Shown: positions 14,186 to 17,750, counted from the first letter of the stretch. The stretch: DNA of 64,000 nucleotides from Dehalococcoidia bacterium (GCA_965214635.1 OZ243964.1:1011575-1075574); one strand, 5' to 3'. Notes: generated from the sequence alone by a model not told the origin. Numbers and translations are program-made.

Positions 14186-14194
14186 AACCCGCCA
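14186..14194. repeat. right copy of 9-bp target-site duplication AACCCGCCA
   Basis: See 13340-13348. Confidence 0.85.
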
Positions 14195-14292
14195 TCCTCA
14201 CTTGACATCCCGCCCAACATACCCTACCATATCCTCATATACGAACATATGTACCTCAAAATCCAGCCACCCCTAACACAAACACCAACGCC

Positions 14293-15363
14293 ATGCTCCA
14301 AACCGCCATCCAAAAACTCACCAACAACGGCGACCTCATCGCACACTTCCTAGTACAAACAATGCTAGGCACAACCCCGCACGCCAAAGTCTGCCACCAA
14401 CTCCAAGCCACCAAACTACTCATCAAATTCGGCTTCACAGACCTAAACACCAACGACATCACACACACCACACCCCAACAACACCCGACAGCACTCCCAG
14501 ACTCCTCCCAAGACCATCAGCAACCCACCACCATAACCCCAACCCACATCCTCAACTACGAAATCGCCCGATACATCCGCCAAGAAACCTCCAACGGCGA
14601 AAACCTCGCACGCTTCCTAGTCGAAATCATGCACAAAGACGAACCCCAATTCTCAACACAAACCATCAAGCCCCAACACCGCATCGCAGCCGCCAAAGAA
14701 CTACTCAACCGCGGCTTCGGAAACCTCAACCCAAACAACACATCCCGCCAAACCACCCTCGACCAGCAAGACCACTCAGCACTACACACAGACCTAGCCA
14801 AACACATCCGCGCACAAACCGGACACGGCATAGACACCGCACGCTTCCTCATAGAAGTCGTGCAAGACGGAGCAAACAGCGGCTTCAAACCCCACCACAG
14901 GCTATCAGCCGCATCCGAACTGCTGCGCCGCGCCTACGACATCCCCTACGAACACATCAGCTGGCAGCACATCGAAGCCTACTACAAGACCCAAACCCCA
15001 CCCGATGCACCCTCCATCGAAGAGCCGTCCCCCACTCTCGCCCCCATCCCCACAGACATCGACCCACTCCAAAAAGCCACAACACCGCTAAACACCAGCG
15101 CCAGCAAACCCAACTACCCCGACACCCCGTTCAATCCCAACGCCGAAACCATCCCCGAAGACACCGACACCCTCACACCCGAAGAACTAGACGCCCTAGC
15201 CGACGCCGACATCGAATACTACGACCCACCCACCGACGAAGAATACGCCCAATGGCTCAAAACCATAGACCTCGCCTACCCCCCAGACGACCAGCCCAAC
15301 GAACTCAACGACCCCATCCGAACCGCACACTCACCCATCCAACCCAACGCCCGCAGCCCATAG
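14293..15363 (+). CDS. hypothetical protein with three ~70-aa internal repeats and an acidic/Pro-rich tail
   Basis: Repeats contain (A/H)(R/H)FL(V/I)(E/Q)... followed by H(R/Q)xxA(A/T)(K/S)(E/L)L(L/I)(N/R/K)(R/F)(G/A)(F/Y). The ORF lies in a G-poor strand where spurious ORFs are easy to obtain, so the repeat structure is the main support. Confidence 0.5.
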   Translation: MLQTAIQKLTNNGDLIAHFLVQTMLGTTPHAKVCHQLQATKLLIKFGFTDLNTNDITHTTPQQHPTALPDSSQDHQQPTTITPTHILNYEIARYIRQETSNGENLARFLVEIMHKDEPQFSTQTIKPQHRIAAAKELLNRGFGNLNPNNTSRQTTLDQQDHSALHTDLAKHIRAQTGHGIDTARFLIEVVQDGANSGFKPHHRLSAASELLRRAYDIPYEHISWQHIEAYYKTQTPPDAPSIEEPSPTLAPIPTDIDPLQKATTPLNTSASKPNYPDTPFNPNAETIPEDTDTLTPEELDALADADIEYYDPPTDEEYAQWLKTIDLAYPPDDQPNELNDPIRTAHSPIQPNARSP

Positions 15364-15411
15364 CCCAACGCAACCAAACACAGCAAACCGCACAAAACCA
15401 AATAAGAAAAG

Positions 15412-15485
15412 TGACCCGCCTCGGACTCGAACCGAGAACCTACTGATTAAGAGTCAGTTGCTCTGCCAAATTGAGCTAGCGGGCC
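15412..15485 (-). tRNA. tRNA-Lys (anticodon CTT)
   Basis: Hand-folded cloverleaf. Acceptor GGCCCGC/GCGGGTC, D-arm TAGCTCAATTTGGCAGAGCA, anticodon stem ACTGA/TCAGT with loop CTCTTAA, T-arm CTCGGTTCGAGTCCGAG. CCA is not encoded. Confidence 0.9.
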
Positions 15486-15674
15486 AAACACACACGCACA
15501 AAAAACAAGATCAGCGTCCACAAAACCAAACGCCAACCTAATTCTATCCCCACACCCCCATCCCGTCAACAATTCCACATCCAAAACTCGCAGCCACACC
15601 AACCCTATACACATAACTCACAAGCAACCACATCAGCTTGAATGCCCATGCCCCATACCCGCACGGACTAAAAA

Positions 15675-16835
15675 TCAATCCCTAAGCAACCCCGGCAGCC
15701 GCCTCAACGCATCAACATCCCGCGCCGAAGCATGAAAATCCAAATACGGCAACACCGCCCGCAAACTCCGCGTCAGCGGCTCATAATCAGCGCCCCCCAA
15801 CAGCGGATTAAGCCACACCAACCGATACACCCGTCGCCGCATCCGACGCGCCTCCCGCCCAAGACGCTCCGGCTCACCAGTATCCCAGCCATCGCTCAAC
15901 ACAAACACCGTCGTATCCCGACCCAGCACATACTCATACCGACCATTCACATACGCCAACGCCTCCCCGATGCGCGTCCCGCCCGACCACCCAGACACCA
16001 CACCCCCAACACGCTCCATCGCCTCCACAAAAGACGGCGCACCCAACTCCCGAGTAACACGCCGAACCATCGTACTGAAAACGAAAGTCTCCACCCGCCT
16101 CGTATGCTGTGCCACCGCAAACACAAGCTGCAACAACAACCGCACATGCCGCTCCATAGAACCGCTCACATCCAACATCACCAGCAAGCGCGGCGTGCGC
16201 GGAACACGGCGCCTGCGCGGCAAAACCAACGGCTCACCCCCGCTGCTCATACTCAGCCGAAACGCAGCGCGCAAATCCGGACTACCCTTACGCCGATGCC
16301 GCCTCCGCCGCCGACCCGGACGCACCGACATCGCACGCGCCATCCGCGCCGCAATCCGCCCCAGCTCATCCAACTCATCCGCACGCAACACCGTAAGATC
16401 CCGTTTAGACCGCACATGCCGAGCACTCGCACCCCTCCGAACCATCTGCACAAGCGTATTCTCAGAACCCTCATCCTCATCCGGCAGCAACGCAGCGCTC
16501 GGCGTCCGCCGAAAATCCTTAGCGCCACCAACAAGCCCATCATCCCCCTCTATATGCGGACGCAACAGCAACGGCTCAAAGTTCCAAAACCGCTCAAACA
16601 CCGCATCATATATCGGAATCTCATCCCGCCGAGACAACAGCAGCGACCGCAACGCCCAATACACCCGCCCCCTATCCATCACATCCACAGCACTCATAGC
16701 CCGCAGCGTATCCGCCGTCTCCGTAGGCCCCACCAGCAGCCCGTGCGAGCGCAGCACACGACAAAACCGCGTCAAATGCGCCACAAAATCATACCCGCCC
16801 GAAGCCTGCCCAAGTCCGTCGATGCCGTTAGTCAA
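15675..16835 (-). CDS. VWA domain protein, CoxE-like
   Basis: LLVMLDVSGSMERH (MIDAS DxSxS), GGTRIGEALAYV, TTVFVLSDGWDTGEPE, RLVWLNPLLG. TTG start. No CoxD/MoxR partner is adjacent. Confidence 0.85.
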   Translation of the reverse strand: MTNGIDGLGQASGGYDFVAHLTRFCRVLRSHGLLVGPTETADTLRAMSAVDVMDRGRVYWALRSLLLSRRDEIPIYDAVFERFWNFEPLLLRPHIEGDDGLVGGAKDFRRTPSAALLPDEDEGSENTLVQMVRRGASARHVRSKRDLTVLRADELDELGRIAARMARAMSVRPGRRRRRHRRKGSPDLRAAFRLSMSSGGEPLVLPRRRRVPRTPRLLVMLDVSGSMERHVRLLLQLVFAVAQHTRRVETFVFSTMVRRVTRELGAPSFVEAMERVGGVVSGWSGGTRIGEALAYVNGRYEYVLGRDTTVFVLSDGWDTGEPERLGREARRMRRRVYRLVWLNPLLGGADYEPLTRSLRAVLPYLDFHASARDVDALRRLPGLLRD

Positions 16836-16949
16836 CTTACCCTTACAGCCACATCCTTAATCAGAATTATCGAAGACACGAGCATACCCGCCATCTCTCC
16901 GCCCCGGCCTAGAGTCACGGATTTTGACCATAAACCACACTCCACCCAC

Positions 16950-17750
16950 TCACCCTACTATGTCACAACCCAAAAACTGCCGACCCATCATCTTCGCTGC
17001 ACTCAACACAGAATAGCTCCCAGCCGCCGGATCCAGTACCACATCGCCCGGATCCGTTACCGCTTCAATCAACGCCGCTTGCAGTTCTACAGGCTTCGGG
17101 TGAGCATGACGGTCTCTAACAGCCAACTCACTCCACACATCCGGGATATTATGGCGTTGCCACACACCCTTTGCACGCTTAGGAGGTTTCTGAGCTATCA
17201 CGAGGTATTCCGCTTGACGGCGTGTCCGATAACCCATACCCATGCGTCCCTTGTCCCATGTAACAAGGTCAACTATCTCCAATCCATGCATTTCCAGCCA
17301 CCCGCGTACACCGGTACAAAAAAGATGAAACTTGTCCACCCAAAGCATCAGATGACCAGACGGAGTGAGCACCTTTGAGATGCCATCTATAAAACGCAGT
17401 ATCGTGTCTTCATTCATCTGTGGCAACGCAGACCGCGCTCGCCCGCGGCTGACGCCTTCATTGCCATACTGCATCTTGTCCAGTATCCCTCGATACTGGG
17501 GATCAAAGAAGCACACCGGCACAGAGGCAGACTCCATTGCTCCAAGCAAGTCAAGCCCGTCGTGCCGGTTGCGTTGGTTTAGAGCCAGCGGCAACTTGCG
17601 CTGGCTCACCTCATCGAACCCAGTACCAACCGGGACATCCCTAGTCGTAGAGAAGACATTCATGGCTATTACGCTTAATTCCTCGCTACTCCATCCGCGA
17701 GCCGCCCCAAGCGCGAGACACACCCGCCGCCGTCGGCTCCACGATGACAT
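16950..17750 (-). CDS. orphan beta-class N4/N6 DNA methyltransferase
   Basis: CFFDPQY (DPPY-like motif IV) precedes [32 protein letters not shown] (motif I region). The likely true start is ATG 17663, which removes the overlap with the upstream gene. Confidence 0.8.

What the first reader, a model, noticed from the sequence alone, without database searches (positions are those of the whole stretch)
14186..16980. A ~2.8 kb block of extreme strand asymmetry with mirror-image codon third positions in opposite-strand genes
Seen in sequence. From the IS1 boundary to just past the coxE-like gene, the plus strand is C/A-rich and nearly lacks G. A hand count of 15541-15600 gives A18 C29 G3 T10. In the plus-strand ORF 14293-15363, 70 of the first 76 codons end in C or A, and two of the six exceptions are ATG. 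In the minus-strand coxE-like gene, 89 of the first 100 codons end in G or T. Both patterns amount to the same bias on the physical plus strand. The bias fades by ~16980-17040, and flanking genes such as the TPP enzyme use mixed C/G endings. The bias also creates a spurious 548-aa plus-strand ORF. Inference. Synonymous sites on both genes shift in a strand-fixed rather than gene-fixed direction. This points to a strand-specific mutational process equivalent to C-to-T plus A-to-G on the minus strand, the pattern known from single-stranded exposure in mitochondrial replication or from deaminase action. Other explanations are recent acquisition from a replicon with extreme skew (rolling-circle or ssDNA element) or an assembly or chimera artefact. 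I know of no described bacterial chromosomal feature of this size and intensity.
Basis: seen in the sequence. Interest (0 to 1): 0.68.

Follow-up and report, generated by a model that had tools for sequence, protein, structure and literature searches.

The report
Extreme strand-skewed block in bacterial chromosome
In a 2.9-kb stretch of a marine Chloroflexi (Dehalococcoidia/SAR202-type) chromosome, almost every freely variable base on one strand has become G or T, a bias as strong as in animal mitochondria, and the same pattern recurs in related genomes, each time around a member of one uncharacterised multi-copy gene family.

Summary
On the plus strand, window 14186-17050 is 72% A+C, against a mean of 48% (sd 3.5%) elsewhere. 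ORF356 (+) has 93% C/A-ending codons and CoxE (-) has 91% G/T-ending codons. The tRNA-Lys between them is untouched.

It is not an artefact: an independent Illumina contig 95-96% identical shows the same bias. It is not foreign DNA either. CoxE keeps its syntenic position, and six orthologues have ordinary composition, so the bias is derived.

Synonymous divergence is normal, amino-acid divergence is raised 10-20-fold, and both ORFs are intact. This looks like a long-acting strand-asymmetric substitution bias in balance with selection, not a burst.

Two related genomes carry equivalent blocks: 4.3 kb in L089, and the same CoA-transferase in L086. Every block contains a member, or a remnant, of the ORF356 gene family with its sense strand on the A/C-rich strand. 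In 71 of 73 other family loci the gene likewise lies on the locally A/C-rich (lagging-type) strand.

The most likely cause is a local amplification of replication-type single-strand damage around a head-on gene. That mechanism is inferred, not shown.

The parts
14186..17050 (.). The skewed block. The plus strand is A/C-rich and the minus strand G/T-rich, in coding and non-coding DNA of both gene orientations.
   Evidence: Composition and change-points. Same bias in the independent contig L001.
14293..15363 (+). ORF356, a member of an uncharacterised multi-copy Dehalococcoidia/SAR202 gene family. It has three helical repeats and a conserved C-terminal xRSP. Its sense strand is the A/C-rich strand (AC3 .93), and its amino-acid content is shifted towards T, P, Q, N, H, I.
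14202..14230 (+). Sigma-70-like promoter match (TTGACA-17-TACCAT, 10 of 12) 63 nt upstream of the ORF356 start. It keeps its T and G in a T/G-poor background.
   Evidence: consensus match only.
15411..15485 (-). tRNA-Lys(CTT). Intact, with normal composition (A+C .53) inside the block, which shows that selection filtered the bias.
   Evidence: (Rfam 65.9 bits).
15541..15569 (-). Sigma-70-like promoter match (TTGACG-17-TAGAAT) upstream of tRNA-Lys.
   Evidence: consensus match only.
15675..16835 (-). VWA CoxE-like gene. Intact, and under purifying selection against L001 (dN/dS .17). GT3 is .91. Amino-acid evolution is accelerated on this branch.
   Evidence: (PF05762, E 2e-49).
16844..16944 (.). 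101-bp insertion between CoxE and the methylase gene, absent from L001. It is less skewed (intergenic A+C .67).
16950..17750 (-). Type II N6/N4 DNA methyltransferase gene. Only about the last 100-240 nt (16950-17190) carry the bias, with GT3 .70-.80; the rest is .50-.65.
15732..17378 (+). Spurious 548-aa ORF, a by-product of the T-poor plus strand, which has few stop codons.
13348..14182 (+). IS1-family element of normal composition that truncates the block on the left. It is flanked by the 12-bp direct repeat ACCAACCCGCCA (13336-13347 and 14183-14194).
12316..13338 (-). Second insertion sequence (IS-A) with 26-nt terminal inverted repeats, lying immediately left of the IS1 target site. The natural left edge of the block is therefore lost.

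Best explanation
The block is real, inherited chromosomal DNA. A long-acting, strand-asymmetric substitution bias has driven the minus strand towards G/T, and so the plus strand towards A/C, at nearly every site that is free to vary. On the minus strand C is lost to T and G, A is lost to G, and G and T interchange. Purifying selection has kept CoxE, ORF356 and tRNA-Lys functional throughout.

The block is a local amplification, roughly three-fold in deviation from parity, of the physical-strand skew that pervades this Dehalococcoidia/SAR202 clade. It has the same polarity as the DNA around it. It is centred on a member of an uncharacterised multi-copy gene family (ORF356). That family almost always lies with its sense strand on the A/C-rich strand, which by the usual rule is the lagging strand, so the gene is head-on to replication.

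Inferred mechanism: around such a head-on gene the lagging-strand template, which is the G/T-rich strand, stays single-stranded for unusually long or unusually often, for example through fork stalling and restart. Its C and A are then deaminated and its G oxidised faster than on the partner strand. Genes on either strand end up with mirror-image synonymous codon usage.

Shown: the bias, its direction, its age, its recurrence, and its link to the family gene. Inferred: the single-strand exposure and the replication conflict.
For: The bias is strand-fixed at third positions of genes on opposite strands and in intergenic DNA, while the tRNA is spared.

It is shared by the independent contig L001. 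It is absent from the CoxE orthologues L002, L003, L005, L086, L087, L088, which have GT3 .44-.74.

Polarised changes are strongly directional.

Four-fold and synonymous divergence equal those of neighbouring genes. Amino-acid divergence is far higher: CoxE 14/386 against TPP 1/546, p 4e-5; L086/L089 CoA-transferase 37/421 against neighbours 8/1304, p 2e-16. That is what a strong mutation bias predicts once synonymous sites are saturated.

A second instance exists. L089 7114-11416 holds three minus-strand genes and one plus-strand gene with physical GT3 .86-.94. L086 has the same CoA-transferase at .93. The 79%-identical orthologue region L090 is normal. The G/T-strand composition of the two blocks is nearly identical.

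Each block contains a family gene or its remnant with its sense strand on the A/C-rich strand. Family genes have AC3 .73 in 80 loci.

In 71 of 73 loci the flanking genes of both orientations are A/C-rich on the family-sense strand, p 6e-19.

The block polarity matches the weaker skew of its surroundings in the window, L086 and L089.

At the protein level the window lineage is the single outlier among 120 CoxE homologues, and five CoA-transferase clusters form a separate outlier group.
Against: The replication direction is inferred only from the general rule that leading strands are G/T-rich. No origin or terminus was located, and there is no DnaA-box cluster at the polarity flip near 19.5-22.5 kb.

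The other ~80 family copies show only a moderate bias confined to the gene plus about 300 bp upstream, so being head-on is not sufficient.

In L089 the block extends about 1.6 kb beyond the family gene's promoter as well as behind its 3' end, which a simple stalled-fork picture does not predict.

Third codon positions (.91-.93) are more extreme than intergenic DNA (.67-.89), which a purely mutational model does not predict.

Recent polarised replacements in the CoA-transferase are not directional: M>K 15 against K>M 17.

My two-state arithmetic on the synonymous differences fits a fixation bias of about the same strength at purine and pyrimidine sites. That is equally what selection would give.

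No expression, coverage or polymorphism data were available.
Confidence: 0.5

Rival explanations
1. The ORF356-family unit is itself the agent. It would be a mobile or selfish element, or a DNA-acting protein working in cis, that nicks or unwinds DNA at its own locus or moves through single-stranded DNA at the replication fork. This would repeatedly expose one strand of itself and its neighbours. The orientation rule would come from fork-coupled insertion, not from selection.
For: There are dozens of dispersed copies per genome. They share 80-90% nucleotide identity over the gene plus only 20-120 bp upstream, sit in unrelated neighbourhoods, and show a 97% orientation bias relative to local skew. 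From my own knowledge, this orientation bias is the hallmark of fork-coupled single-strand transposons such as IS200/IS605.

Every extreme block contains a copy. There is a systematic step in skew at the gene: upstream .338, downstream .436. The protein has three helix-turn-helix-like three-helix repeats.
Against: No nuclease, HUH, transposase, Rep or RT domain appears in any of about 20 members scanned, and there are no domain fusions. No terminal repeats or hairpins were recognised. The structure model is of low confidence (pLDDT 52), and the fold search gave nothing. Most copies do not affect their flanks.
Confidence: 0.2
2. Transcription-driven asymmetry. One long, heavily used minus-sense transcript would run from about 17050 through CoxE and tRNA-Lys and then antisense across ORF356. 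It would keep the non-template minus strand exposed, possibly as an R-loop favoured by the G-rich RNA, so that strand deaminates.
For: The non-template strand becoming G+T-rich is the known direction of transcription-associated asymmetry (my own knowledge: Francino and Ochman; Green et al.). The right edge lies about 100-200 nt upstream of CoxE, where a promoter could sit. A tRNA gene lies inside the block. In L086 the skewed CoA-transferase is bounded by its upstream region and a terminator-like hairpin.
Against: It needs strong antisense transcription across ORF356, and across three consecutive minus-strand genes in L089, where the arrangement is divergent rather than convergent. Family genes in 80 loci are A/C-rich on their own sense strand, the opposite of the expected sign. 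The highly expressed nusA and infB in the window are not G/T-rich on their sense strand. No promoter match was found near 17050.
Confidence: 0.12
3. Selection on strand composition itself. For example, there could be an advantage to an A/C-only, structure-free plus-sense RNA or DNA strand, or to a G/T-rich strand recognised by a single-strand-binding or recombination protein.
For: Synonymous differences between close strains behave like a fixation bias of similar strength at purine and pyrimidine sites, with a normal total rate (my arithmetic). G<->T interchanges are enriched: 8/23 against 7/115, p 6e-4. Third positions are more extreme than intergenic DNA.
Against: No shared over-represented oligomer was found in the G/T strands of the blocks. 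The bias falls on unrelated genes (CoxE, CoA-transferase, JAB, a 186-aa protein) and costs them amino-acid changes. No function is known that would need kilobases of strand-segregated bases. The raised dN between already-skewed strains fits continuing mutation pressure better.
Confidence: 0.08
4. The segment was acquired from a replicon with extreme skew, such as a rolling-circle plasmid, single-stranded DNA phage or organelle-like element. Alternatively it is an assembly, chimera or damage artefact.
For: The block lies beside insertion sequences and a defence island.
Against: The independent Illumina contig has the same bias and 4% ordinary divergence. The tRNA is intact and both ORFs are intact and selected. 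CoxE and the CoA-transferase keep their synteny, and their nearest relatives are the same clade's normal orthologues. The right edge lies inside a native-composition gene. The family is absent from IMG/VR.
Confidence: 0.03

Closest known systems
Strand asymmetry of vertebrate mitochondrial DNA (A/C-rich, G-poor L strand, attributed to deamination of the displaced H strand)
   Same: The sign and magnitude at freely evolving sites are the same: one strand has G about .06 and T about .01 at third positions and the other is its mirror image. Genes on both strands are affected, tRNA is spared, and proteins shift in amino-acid content.
   Different: Here it is a 3-4 kb island in a 2.7-Mb bacterial chromosome, not a whole replicon. 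No gradient from an origin is visible. Transversions (C>G, G>T) are prominent. Strand-displacement replication is not known for this organism.
Replication-associated GC/keto skew of bacterial chromosomes
   Same: It is fixed to the physical strand and independent of gene orientation, with G>C and T>A together. The block has the polarity of its neighbourhood.
   Different: Typical GC skew is a few per cent (SkewDB abstract, PMC8941118: 'typically around 2.5%'). Here GC skew is -0.47 and AT skew +0.42 over 2.9 kb with kb-scale edges. Replichore-wide skew does not form islands.
Accelerated evolution of head-on (lagging-strand) genes through replication-transcription conflict (reviewed in PMC7451550; disputed in bioRxiv 10.1101/2021.08.23.457454)
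   Same: The family gene lies on the inferred lagging strand. Protein evolution in and next to it is accelerated 10-20-fold relative to neighbours.
   Different: Those studies report modest rate effects in the head-on gene itself. They do not report a saturating strand-specific compositional shift that spreads to co-directional neighbours.
Targeted strand-specific deamination (AID at immunoglobulin switch/variable regions, APOBEC kataegis, engineered T7-polymerase-deaminase mutators)
   Same: There is a kb-scale, strand-coordinated loss of C (and A) from one strand within a bounded region.
   Different: No burst or rate excess is seen at synonymous sites, the ORFs are preserved, and transversions are common. 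No deaminase gene was identified in the block. The context test was inconclusive.
Fork-coupled single-strand transposons (IS200/IS605 family), which insert in one orientation relative to replication (my own knowledge: Ton-Hoang et al. 2010)
   Same: A multi-copy dispersed unit with about 97% orientation bias relative to local strand skew.
   Different: No HUH/Y1 transposase or terminal hairpins were detected. Those elements are not reported to skew their flanks.

Membership tests
Replication-associated strand compositional skew | The bias follows the physical strand whatever the gene orientation. | tested here: met
   ORF356 (+) has AC3 .93 and CoxE (-) has GT3 .91. In L089, three minus-strand genes and one plus-strand gene have physical GT3 .86-.94.
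Replication-associated strand compositional skew | Polarity is constant along a replichore and switches only at the origin or terminus. | tested here: inconclusive
   The window's polarity flips near 19.5-22.5 kb, with no DnaA-box cluster or origin-linked genes there. Only 64 kb was available.
Replication-associated strand compositional skew | Magnitude of a few per cent up to about 20%, without kb-scale islands. | tested here: not met
   GC skew -0.47 and AT skew +0.42 in a 2.9-kb island, 7 sd from other windows. The typical value comes from PMC8941118.
Mitochondrial-type single-strand-exposure skew | One strand is A/C-rich and nearly G-free at four-fold or third positions, mirrored in genes on the opposite strand. 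| tested here: met
Mitochondrial-type single-strand-exposure skew | Skew is graded with the time spent single-stranded, that is, with distance from an origin. | tested here: not met
   Third-position bias is flat at .88-.97 in 40-codon bins across both genes, then fades over about 250 nt.
Mitochondrial-type single-strand-exposure skew | Strand-displacement replication of the region. | not testable with these tools
   This needs replication-intermediate or single-stranded DNA mapping.
Transcription-associated mutational asymmetry | The non-template (sense) strand of the transcribed gene is enriched in G+T. | tested here: not met
   This holds for CoxE and the CoA-transferase. It is reversed for ORF356, for 80 family genes (AC3 .73), and for three L089 genes.
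Enzymatic deaminase hypermutation (APOBEC/AID-like, DddA/SsdA-like) | Almost exclusively C>T (G>A) changes in a preferred dinucleotide context. | tested here: inconclusive
   C>T 40, but also A>G 24, C>G 23, G>T 19. C is lost more often after A or T (16/30, 10/24) than after G or C (19/95, 4/23), but this is confounded with codon position.
Enzymatic deaminase hypermutation (APOBEC/AID-like, DddA/SsdA-like) | A burst or raised rate that ignores coding constraints. | tested here: not met
   Synonymous divergence equals that of neighbours. The ORFs and the tRNA are intact, and dN/dS is .17.
Diversity-generating retroelement | A template/variable repeat pair, a reverse transcriptase, and adenine-specific changes. 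| tested here: not met
   No repeat pair was found in 12000-17500 beyond the internal protein repeats. There is no RT domain. The changes are not adenine-specific.
RIP-like repeat-induced mutation | C>T on repeated DNA, giving AT enrichment and gene inactivation. | tested here: not met
   The block's G+C (.57) equals the window's, and the genes remain intact. Only the link to a repeated family and the spread into flanks resemble RIP.
Amino-acid-driven low-complexity skew (such as Pro/Thr linkers) | The bias resides in codon positions 1-2 of a repetitive protein on one strand. | tested here: not met
   The bias is strongest at position 3 and in non-repetitive CoxE. Contrast 58.2-59.4 kb, which does fit this class.
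VWA CoxE-like proteins (PF05762), for gene 15675-16835 | A Pfam match above the gathering threshold. | tested here: met
   168 bits against a cut-off of 26.4.
ORF356 gene family (unnamed), for gene 14293-15363 | Alignment to family members across three repeats, retention of the invariant residues, and a C-terminal xRSP. | tested here: met
   51 homologues at E down to 4e-45. 26 invariant columns are retained. The profile scores E 9e-118 against the window ORF and 2e-41 against the L089 gene.

The most novel reading that the evidence does not exclude
The ORF356-family unit is a previously unrecognised genetic element that creates strand-specific single-strandedness, and hence strand-specific mutation, in cis. 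It could be a fork-coupled single-strand mobile element, or a protein that stalls or re-primes replication at its own locus. In some lineages it rewrites the synonymous sites and accelerates the protein evolution of host genes up to about 2 kb away on both sides. This would be a natural, locus-targeted, strand-specific mutator in bacteria.
Probability: 0.25. Interest if true: 0.9.

Novelty: new variant of a known kind. Interest (0 to 1): 0.72.

Why it matters
Strand compositional asymmetry in bacteria is normally a chromosome-wide effect of a few per cent. It is used to find origins and to argue about replication-linked versus transcription-linked mutagenesis.

Here the same kind of asymmetry reaches mitochondrial intensity in discrete 1-4 kb islands. 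It mirrors itself in genes on opposite strands, persists across strain divergence, and speeds protein evolution 10-20-fold. In every case found it surrounds a member of one uncharacterised multi-copy gene family that obeys a 97% orientation rule.

If the cause is mutational, these islands are natural experiments. The long-disputed mutagenic effect of head-on genes, or of persistent single-strandedness, could be read directly from sequence and tested by moving one gene.

If the family gene is the agent, it is a new kind of cis-acting mutator or mobile element.

There are practical consequences too. Such islands create long spurious ORFs, mislead codon-usage-based HGT detectors, and distort phylogenies. 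CoxE and the CoA-transferase sit on long branches.

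Tried and rejected
**Artefact or chimera.** Rejected, because the independent contig L001 shows the same bias.

**Horizontal transfer from a skewed replicon.** Rejected on synteny and on the nearest relatives. The family is absent from IMG/VR.

**Second skew block at 58 kb as the same phenomenon.** Rejected; it is a Pro/Thr repeat.

**Integrative element at the tRNA.** CoxE loci of relatives have no tRNA, and family loci show no consistent tRNA association.

**Retro-copy origin of the family.** Unlikely, because the paralogous unit includes the promoter region.

**Motif-driven selection (KOPS/Chi-like arrays).** No shared enriched k-mer was found.

**IS-A inverted-repeat motif or the L086/L089 hairpin as block delimiters.** The motif occurs only in the related lineages and with inconsistent polarity. 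The hairpin is absent from the window.

**Replication origin at the polarity flip.** No DnaA-box cluster or origin genes were found.

**Function of the family.** Pfam, NCBIfam, PHROGs, PADLOC, PDB sequence search, AlphaFold plus Foldseek, and scans of longer members for domain fusions all came back empty.

**Exact-sequence look-ups of the window's ORF356 and CoxE.** Both failed.

**Metagenome scan for the third extreme family member, P0326.** It found nothing.

**Literature.** Seven searches found no description of such islands.

Full report
**1.

A sliding-window profile shows that from 14.2 to 17.05 kb the plus strand is 68-78% A+C. GC skew there is -0.35 to -0.65 and AT skew is +0.26 to +0.64. 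The rest of the window averages 48-49%.

Taken as one 2865-nt unit, the block is 72.4% A+C. The 1108 other windows of that size have mean 47.8%, sd 3.5%, maximum 56.0%.

- 15541-15600 is A18 C29 G3 T10.
- 70 of the first 76 ORF356 codons end in C/A, and two of the six exceptions are ATG.
- 89 of the first 100 CoxE codons end in G/T.
- The 548-aa plus-strand ORF has no stop codon.

Third-position composition is ORF356 A .31 C .62 G .06 T .01, and CoxE (sense) A .02 C .07 G .60 T .32. On the physical minus strand both genes therefore sit at the same point: G about .61, T about .32, C about .06, A about .015. Other long ORFs in the window range from .28 to .71.

Intergenic DNA in the block is 67-89% A+C. 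The tRNA-Lys(CTT) at 15411-15485 is 53% and scores as a normal tRNA.

The only other strong skew in the window, at 58.2-59.4 kb, is the Pro/Thr-repeat linker of an LRR protein. It is driven by amino-acid content.

**2. It is biological, native and derived**

A SPAdes/Illumina metagenome contig from another sample (L001) is collinear with window 15577-22092 at 95-96% identity, covering TPP enzyme, methylase and CoxE. Its CoxE has GT3 .93. That excludes an assembly, chimera or damage artefact. It also dates the bias to before about 4-5% divergence.

CoxE keeps its position downstream of the TPP-enzyme gene in six other lineages: L002, L003, L005, L086, L087, L088. In the slot between the two genes, each lineage holds a different restriction-modification or toxin-antitoxin module. 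In those lineages CoxE GT3 is .44-.74.

The TPP enzyme is 93-94% identical to L003 and L005, so these are close relatives. CoxE is only 72-74% identical to them, although they are 84-90% identical to each other. In a neighbour-joining tree the window lineage sits on a long branch.

Acquisition from a skewed replicon is therefore rejected.

**3. Direction and tempo**

I polarised CoxE changes at sites where three orthologues agree, reading the sense (= minus) strand. The counts are C>T 40, A>G 24, C>G 23, G>T 19. The reverse changes are T>C 4, G>A 3, G>C 7, T>G 7. Of 43 ancestral third-position Cs, 19 became T, 11 became G and 11 stayed C.

The rate is not raised at silent sites. Four-fold sites differ by 38-52% from L002/L003/L005 in CoxE, against 45-51% (L003, L005) in the TPP gene. 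Against L001, CoxE dS is .10 and its neighbours are at .09-.19, with CoxE dN/dS .17.

Amino-acid change is raised: CoxE has 14/386 replacements against 1/546 in TPP (p 4e-5).

Among synonymous differences from L001, G<->T interchanges are 8 of 23 in CoxE, against 7 of 115 in four other genes (p 6e-4). A/G differences per purine site are about six-fold depleted.

My own two-state arithmetic on these counts, which is inference, says the bias is still being maintained. On the G/T-rich strand, changes towards G/T run several-fold faster than changes away from it, while the summed rate is about normal. A finished ancient burst now decaying would give many more G>A and T>C differences than are seen.

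A strong mutation bias with saturated synonymous sites predicts exactly this combination: normal dS and raised dN. A fixation bias from selection fits the silent-site numbers equally well.

**4. Anatomy**

*Left edge.* The block begins at the right end of an IS1-family element (13348-14182). That element is flanked by the 12-bp direct repeat ACCAACCCGCCA. Immediately to its left lies a second IS (12316-13338) with 26-nt inverted repeats. Both have normal composition, so they are younger insertions and the natural left edge is lost. What remains is 107 nt upstream of ORF356, including a TTGACA-17-TACCAT promoter match.

*Right edge.* The change-point is 17050, 100 nt inside the 3' end of a type II N6/N4 methyltransferase gene. 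At synonymous sites the bias fades over about 250 nt. A 101-bp insertion at 16844-16944, absent from L001, is less skewed.

*Inside the block.* The bias is flat, at .88-.97 per 40-codon bin.

*Surroundings.* To the left there is a defence island with Thoeris-like TIR and SIR2 genes, HsdM and an E1-like gene. To the right there are ordinary housekeeping genes.

**5. The phenomenon recurs, and ORF356 is the common denominator**

ORF356 has no Pfam, NCBIfam, PHROG, PADLOC or PDB match. It does belong to a family: 51 homologues in the word-indexed search, and 538 cluster representatives in the exhaustive search.

A genome scan gave 222 hits in a handful of Dehalococcoidia/SAR202 MAGs, which means dozens of copies per genome. 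Within one genome the copies share 80-90% nucleotide identity over the gene plus only 20-120 bp upstream. They lie in unrelated neighbourhoods.

The proteins have three helical repeats of the form xARFLxE...HRxxAAxELLxRGxG, a disordered tail and a conserved C-terminal xRSP.

Family genes are moderately A/C-rich on their sense strand everywhere. AC3 averages .73 (range .62-.80) and gene A+C is .63 (sd .02). Their flanks are not strongly affected in those 80 loci.

Following CoxE into L086, a circular 3.4-Mb contig, I found physical G/T at third positions jumping from .38-.49 upstream of CoxE to .65-.93 downstream, in genes of both orientations. A CoA-transferase there reaches .93.

The 91%-identical CoA-transferase in a third genome, L089 (circular, 3.5 Mb), lies in a 4.3-kb block at 7114-11416. 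In that block three minus-strand genes have physical GT3 .94.86 and .86, and the plus-strand CoA-transferase has .94. This is again mirror-image codon usage, but here in a divergent gene arrangement.

The 79%-identical orthologous region L090 is normal, with the genes in and around the block position (PDZ, JAB, CoA-transferase, Mo-oxidoreductase) at .60-.71.

Between L086 and L089 the CoA-transferase differs at 37 of 421 residues. Four neighbouring genes differ at 8 of 1304, at similar synonymous divergence (p 2e-16).

The 454-aa gene in the middle of the L089 block is an ORF356-family member (profile E 2e-41, C-terminal SRSP). The 221-aa ORF next to CoxE in L086 is the C-terminal remnant of the same gene.

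The G/T-strand composition of the window block and the L089 block is almost identical: A .12/.13, C .15/.17, G .42/.43, T .30/.27.

Protein-composition footprints agree:
- The window lineage is the lone outlier among 120 CoxE homologues.
- Five CoA-transferase clusters form an outlier group.
- Among 155 family representatives the window protein is 3.5 sd out, matched by one other protein, P0326. It is 41% identical, so it is probably an independent case.

**6. An orientation rule and a step**

In 71 of 73 family loci from other genomes, the flanking genes of both orientations are A/C-rich at third positions on the family-sense strand. The mean physical GT3 is .39 (binomial p 6e-19).

These genomes, like the window, show a pervasive physical-strand skew of .55-.70 independent of gene orientation. 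By the general rule that leading strands are G- and T-rich, which I assumed rather than tested here, the family gene is almost always on the lagging strand, head-on to replication.

The 8 kb upstream of the gene is more skewed (.338, sd .06) than the 7 kb downstream (.436, sd .05) in most loci. I cannot explain this step.

**7. Mechanism**

*What is shown.* There is a strand-fixed, derived, still-maintained substitution bias in balance with purifying selection. It amplifies the surrounding skew of the same polarity, and it is tied to a family gene whose sense strand is the A/C-rich one.

*What I infer.* The G/T-rich strand, which is the lagging-strand template, is single-stranded for longer or more often around such a head-on gene. 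It therefore collects C>T, A>G and G>T changes. In the window the block reaches 1.7 kb behind the 3' end of ORF356, and in L089 it reaches 1.3 kb. That is about the length of a bacterial Okazaki fragment (my own knowledge). It is what a fork stalled against a head-on gene would leave exposed.

*Points against.*
- Most family copies do not do this.
- The L089 block also extends 1.6 kb beyond the gene's promoter.
- Third positions are more extreme than intergenic DNA.
- The replication direction is unverified.

*Rivals.*
- The family unit could be a cis-acting or fork-coupled element. This is favoured by its copy number, unit structure and orientation rule, and weakened by the lack of any catalytic domain.
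- A long transcript of the G/T-rich sense could be responsible. This is contradicted by the sign of the bias in family genes and by the divergent L089 arrangement.
- Selection could act on strand composition. Silent-site dynamics fit this, but there is no shared motif and no plausible function.

**8. Comparison and novelty**

The pattern equals vertebrate mitochondrial strand asymmetry in sign and strength. It equals bacterial replication skew in kind. It differs from both in being a kb-scale island in a bacterial chromosome, and from the latter by more than an order of magnitude (SkewDB gives about 2.5% as typical, PMC8941118).

It is not a DGR, it is not RIP, and it is not a deaminase burst (see the membership table).

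Seven literature searches found no description of such islands or of this gene family. I rate it a new variant of a known kind. There is a one-in-four chance that the family gene is itself a new kind of cis-acting mutator or mobile element.

**9. Limits**

- Only 64 kb of the source genome and about 20-kb loci of relatives could be read.
- No coverage, expression or polymorphism data were available.
- Polarisation is weakened by near-saturation of silent sites between lineages.
- The counts between close strains are small.
- Flank gene calls in the 73-locus analysis used a simple GC3-based heuristic.

Noticed in passing
window 57197-60166 (skew peak 58.2-59.4 kb); also 12013-12185: There is an opposite-sign strand skew here (plus strand 70-72% G+T). 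It comes from long Pro/Thr-repeat linkers in LRR proteins encoded on the minus strand. This is an ordinary, amino-acid-driven look-alike of the finding.
   Followed up: yes
window 1528-11030: A defence island: a SIR2-domain protein (3373-5475), a Thoeris ThsB-type TIR protein (6098-6658), type I HsdM (7154-9175) and a ThiF/E1-like protein (9603-11030), all on the minus strand.
   Followed up: partly
window ~19500-22500: The physical-strand bias at third codon positions changes sign here. The plus strand is A/C-rich at .55-.66 for genes at 9.6-19.5 kb, and G/T-rich at .61-.72 for genes of both orientations at 23-36 and 46.8-52.4 kb. There is no DnaA-box cluster or origin-linked gene at the flip. 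It could be an origin, a terminus or a rearrangement boundary.
   Followed up: partly
window 16836-17686; L001, L003, L005, L086, L087, L088 between the TPP enzyme gene and CoxE: In each lineage this slot carries a different restriction-modification or toxin-antitoxin module: a methylase; methylase + NgoMIV + MazE/PIN; NmeDI; or PIN. It is an insertion hot spot for defence genes.
   Followed up: partly
window 12316-13338, 13348-14182, 9305-9328, 19578-19604; L001 both contig ends; L086 13263: A ~1-kb IS with 26-nt inverted repeats (core CCTGAATGGAAACGCT) and an IS1-like element both lie at the block edge. Solo copies of the repeat occur elsewhere. In L001 the repeat abuts the block 95 nt downstream of CoxE. 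Among all loci read, the motif occurs only in the lineages that have extreme blocks.
   Followed up: partly
L006-L085 (73 family loci), positions about -8 kb to +8 kb around the family gene: There is a systematic step in physical-strand third-position bias at the family gene. Upstream flanks have mean G/T .338 and downstream flanks .436, although the flanking genes are unrelated between loci.
   Followed up: partly
L086 11295, 14641, 19265; L089 8370, 9831, 11277: A lineage-specific REP-like element follows several genes, always in the same orientation. It is a perfect hairpin ACTTTTTTAGAAAAAAGT followed by CAAAAAACTTTTGGGTGGGTG. It is absent from the window.
   Followed up: partly
protein P0326 (352 aa, source contig not retrievable): This is another family member with amino-acid content as strongly shifted as ORF356 (His/Thr/Asn/Asp/Gln-rich) but only 41% identical to it. 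It is probably a further independent extreme block in another genome.
   Followed up: partly
L089 16222-17904: The called 560-aa gene translates as (GVGVRVIV)n. It is probably the wrong strand of a Pro/Thr-repeat gene, which illustrates how strand-skewed DNA misleads gene callers.
   Followed up: no
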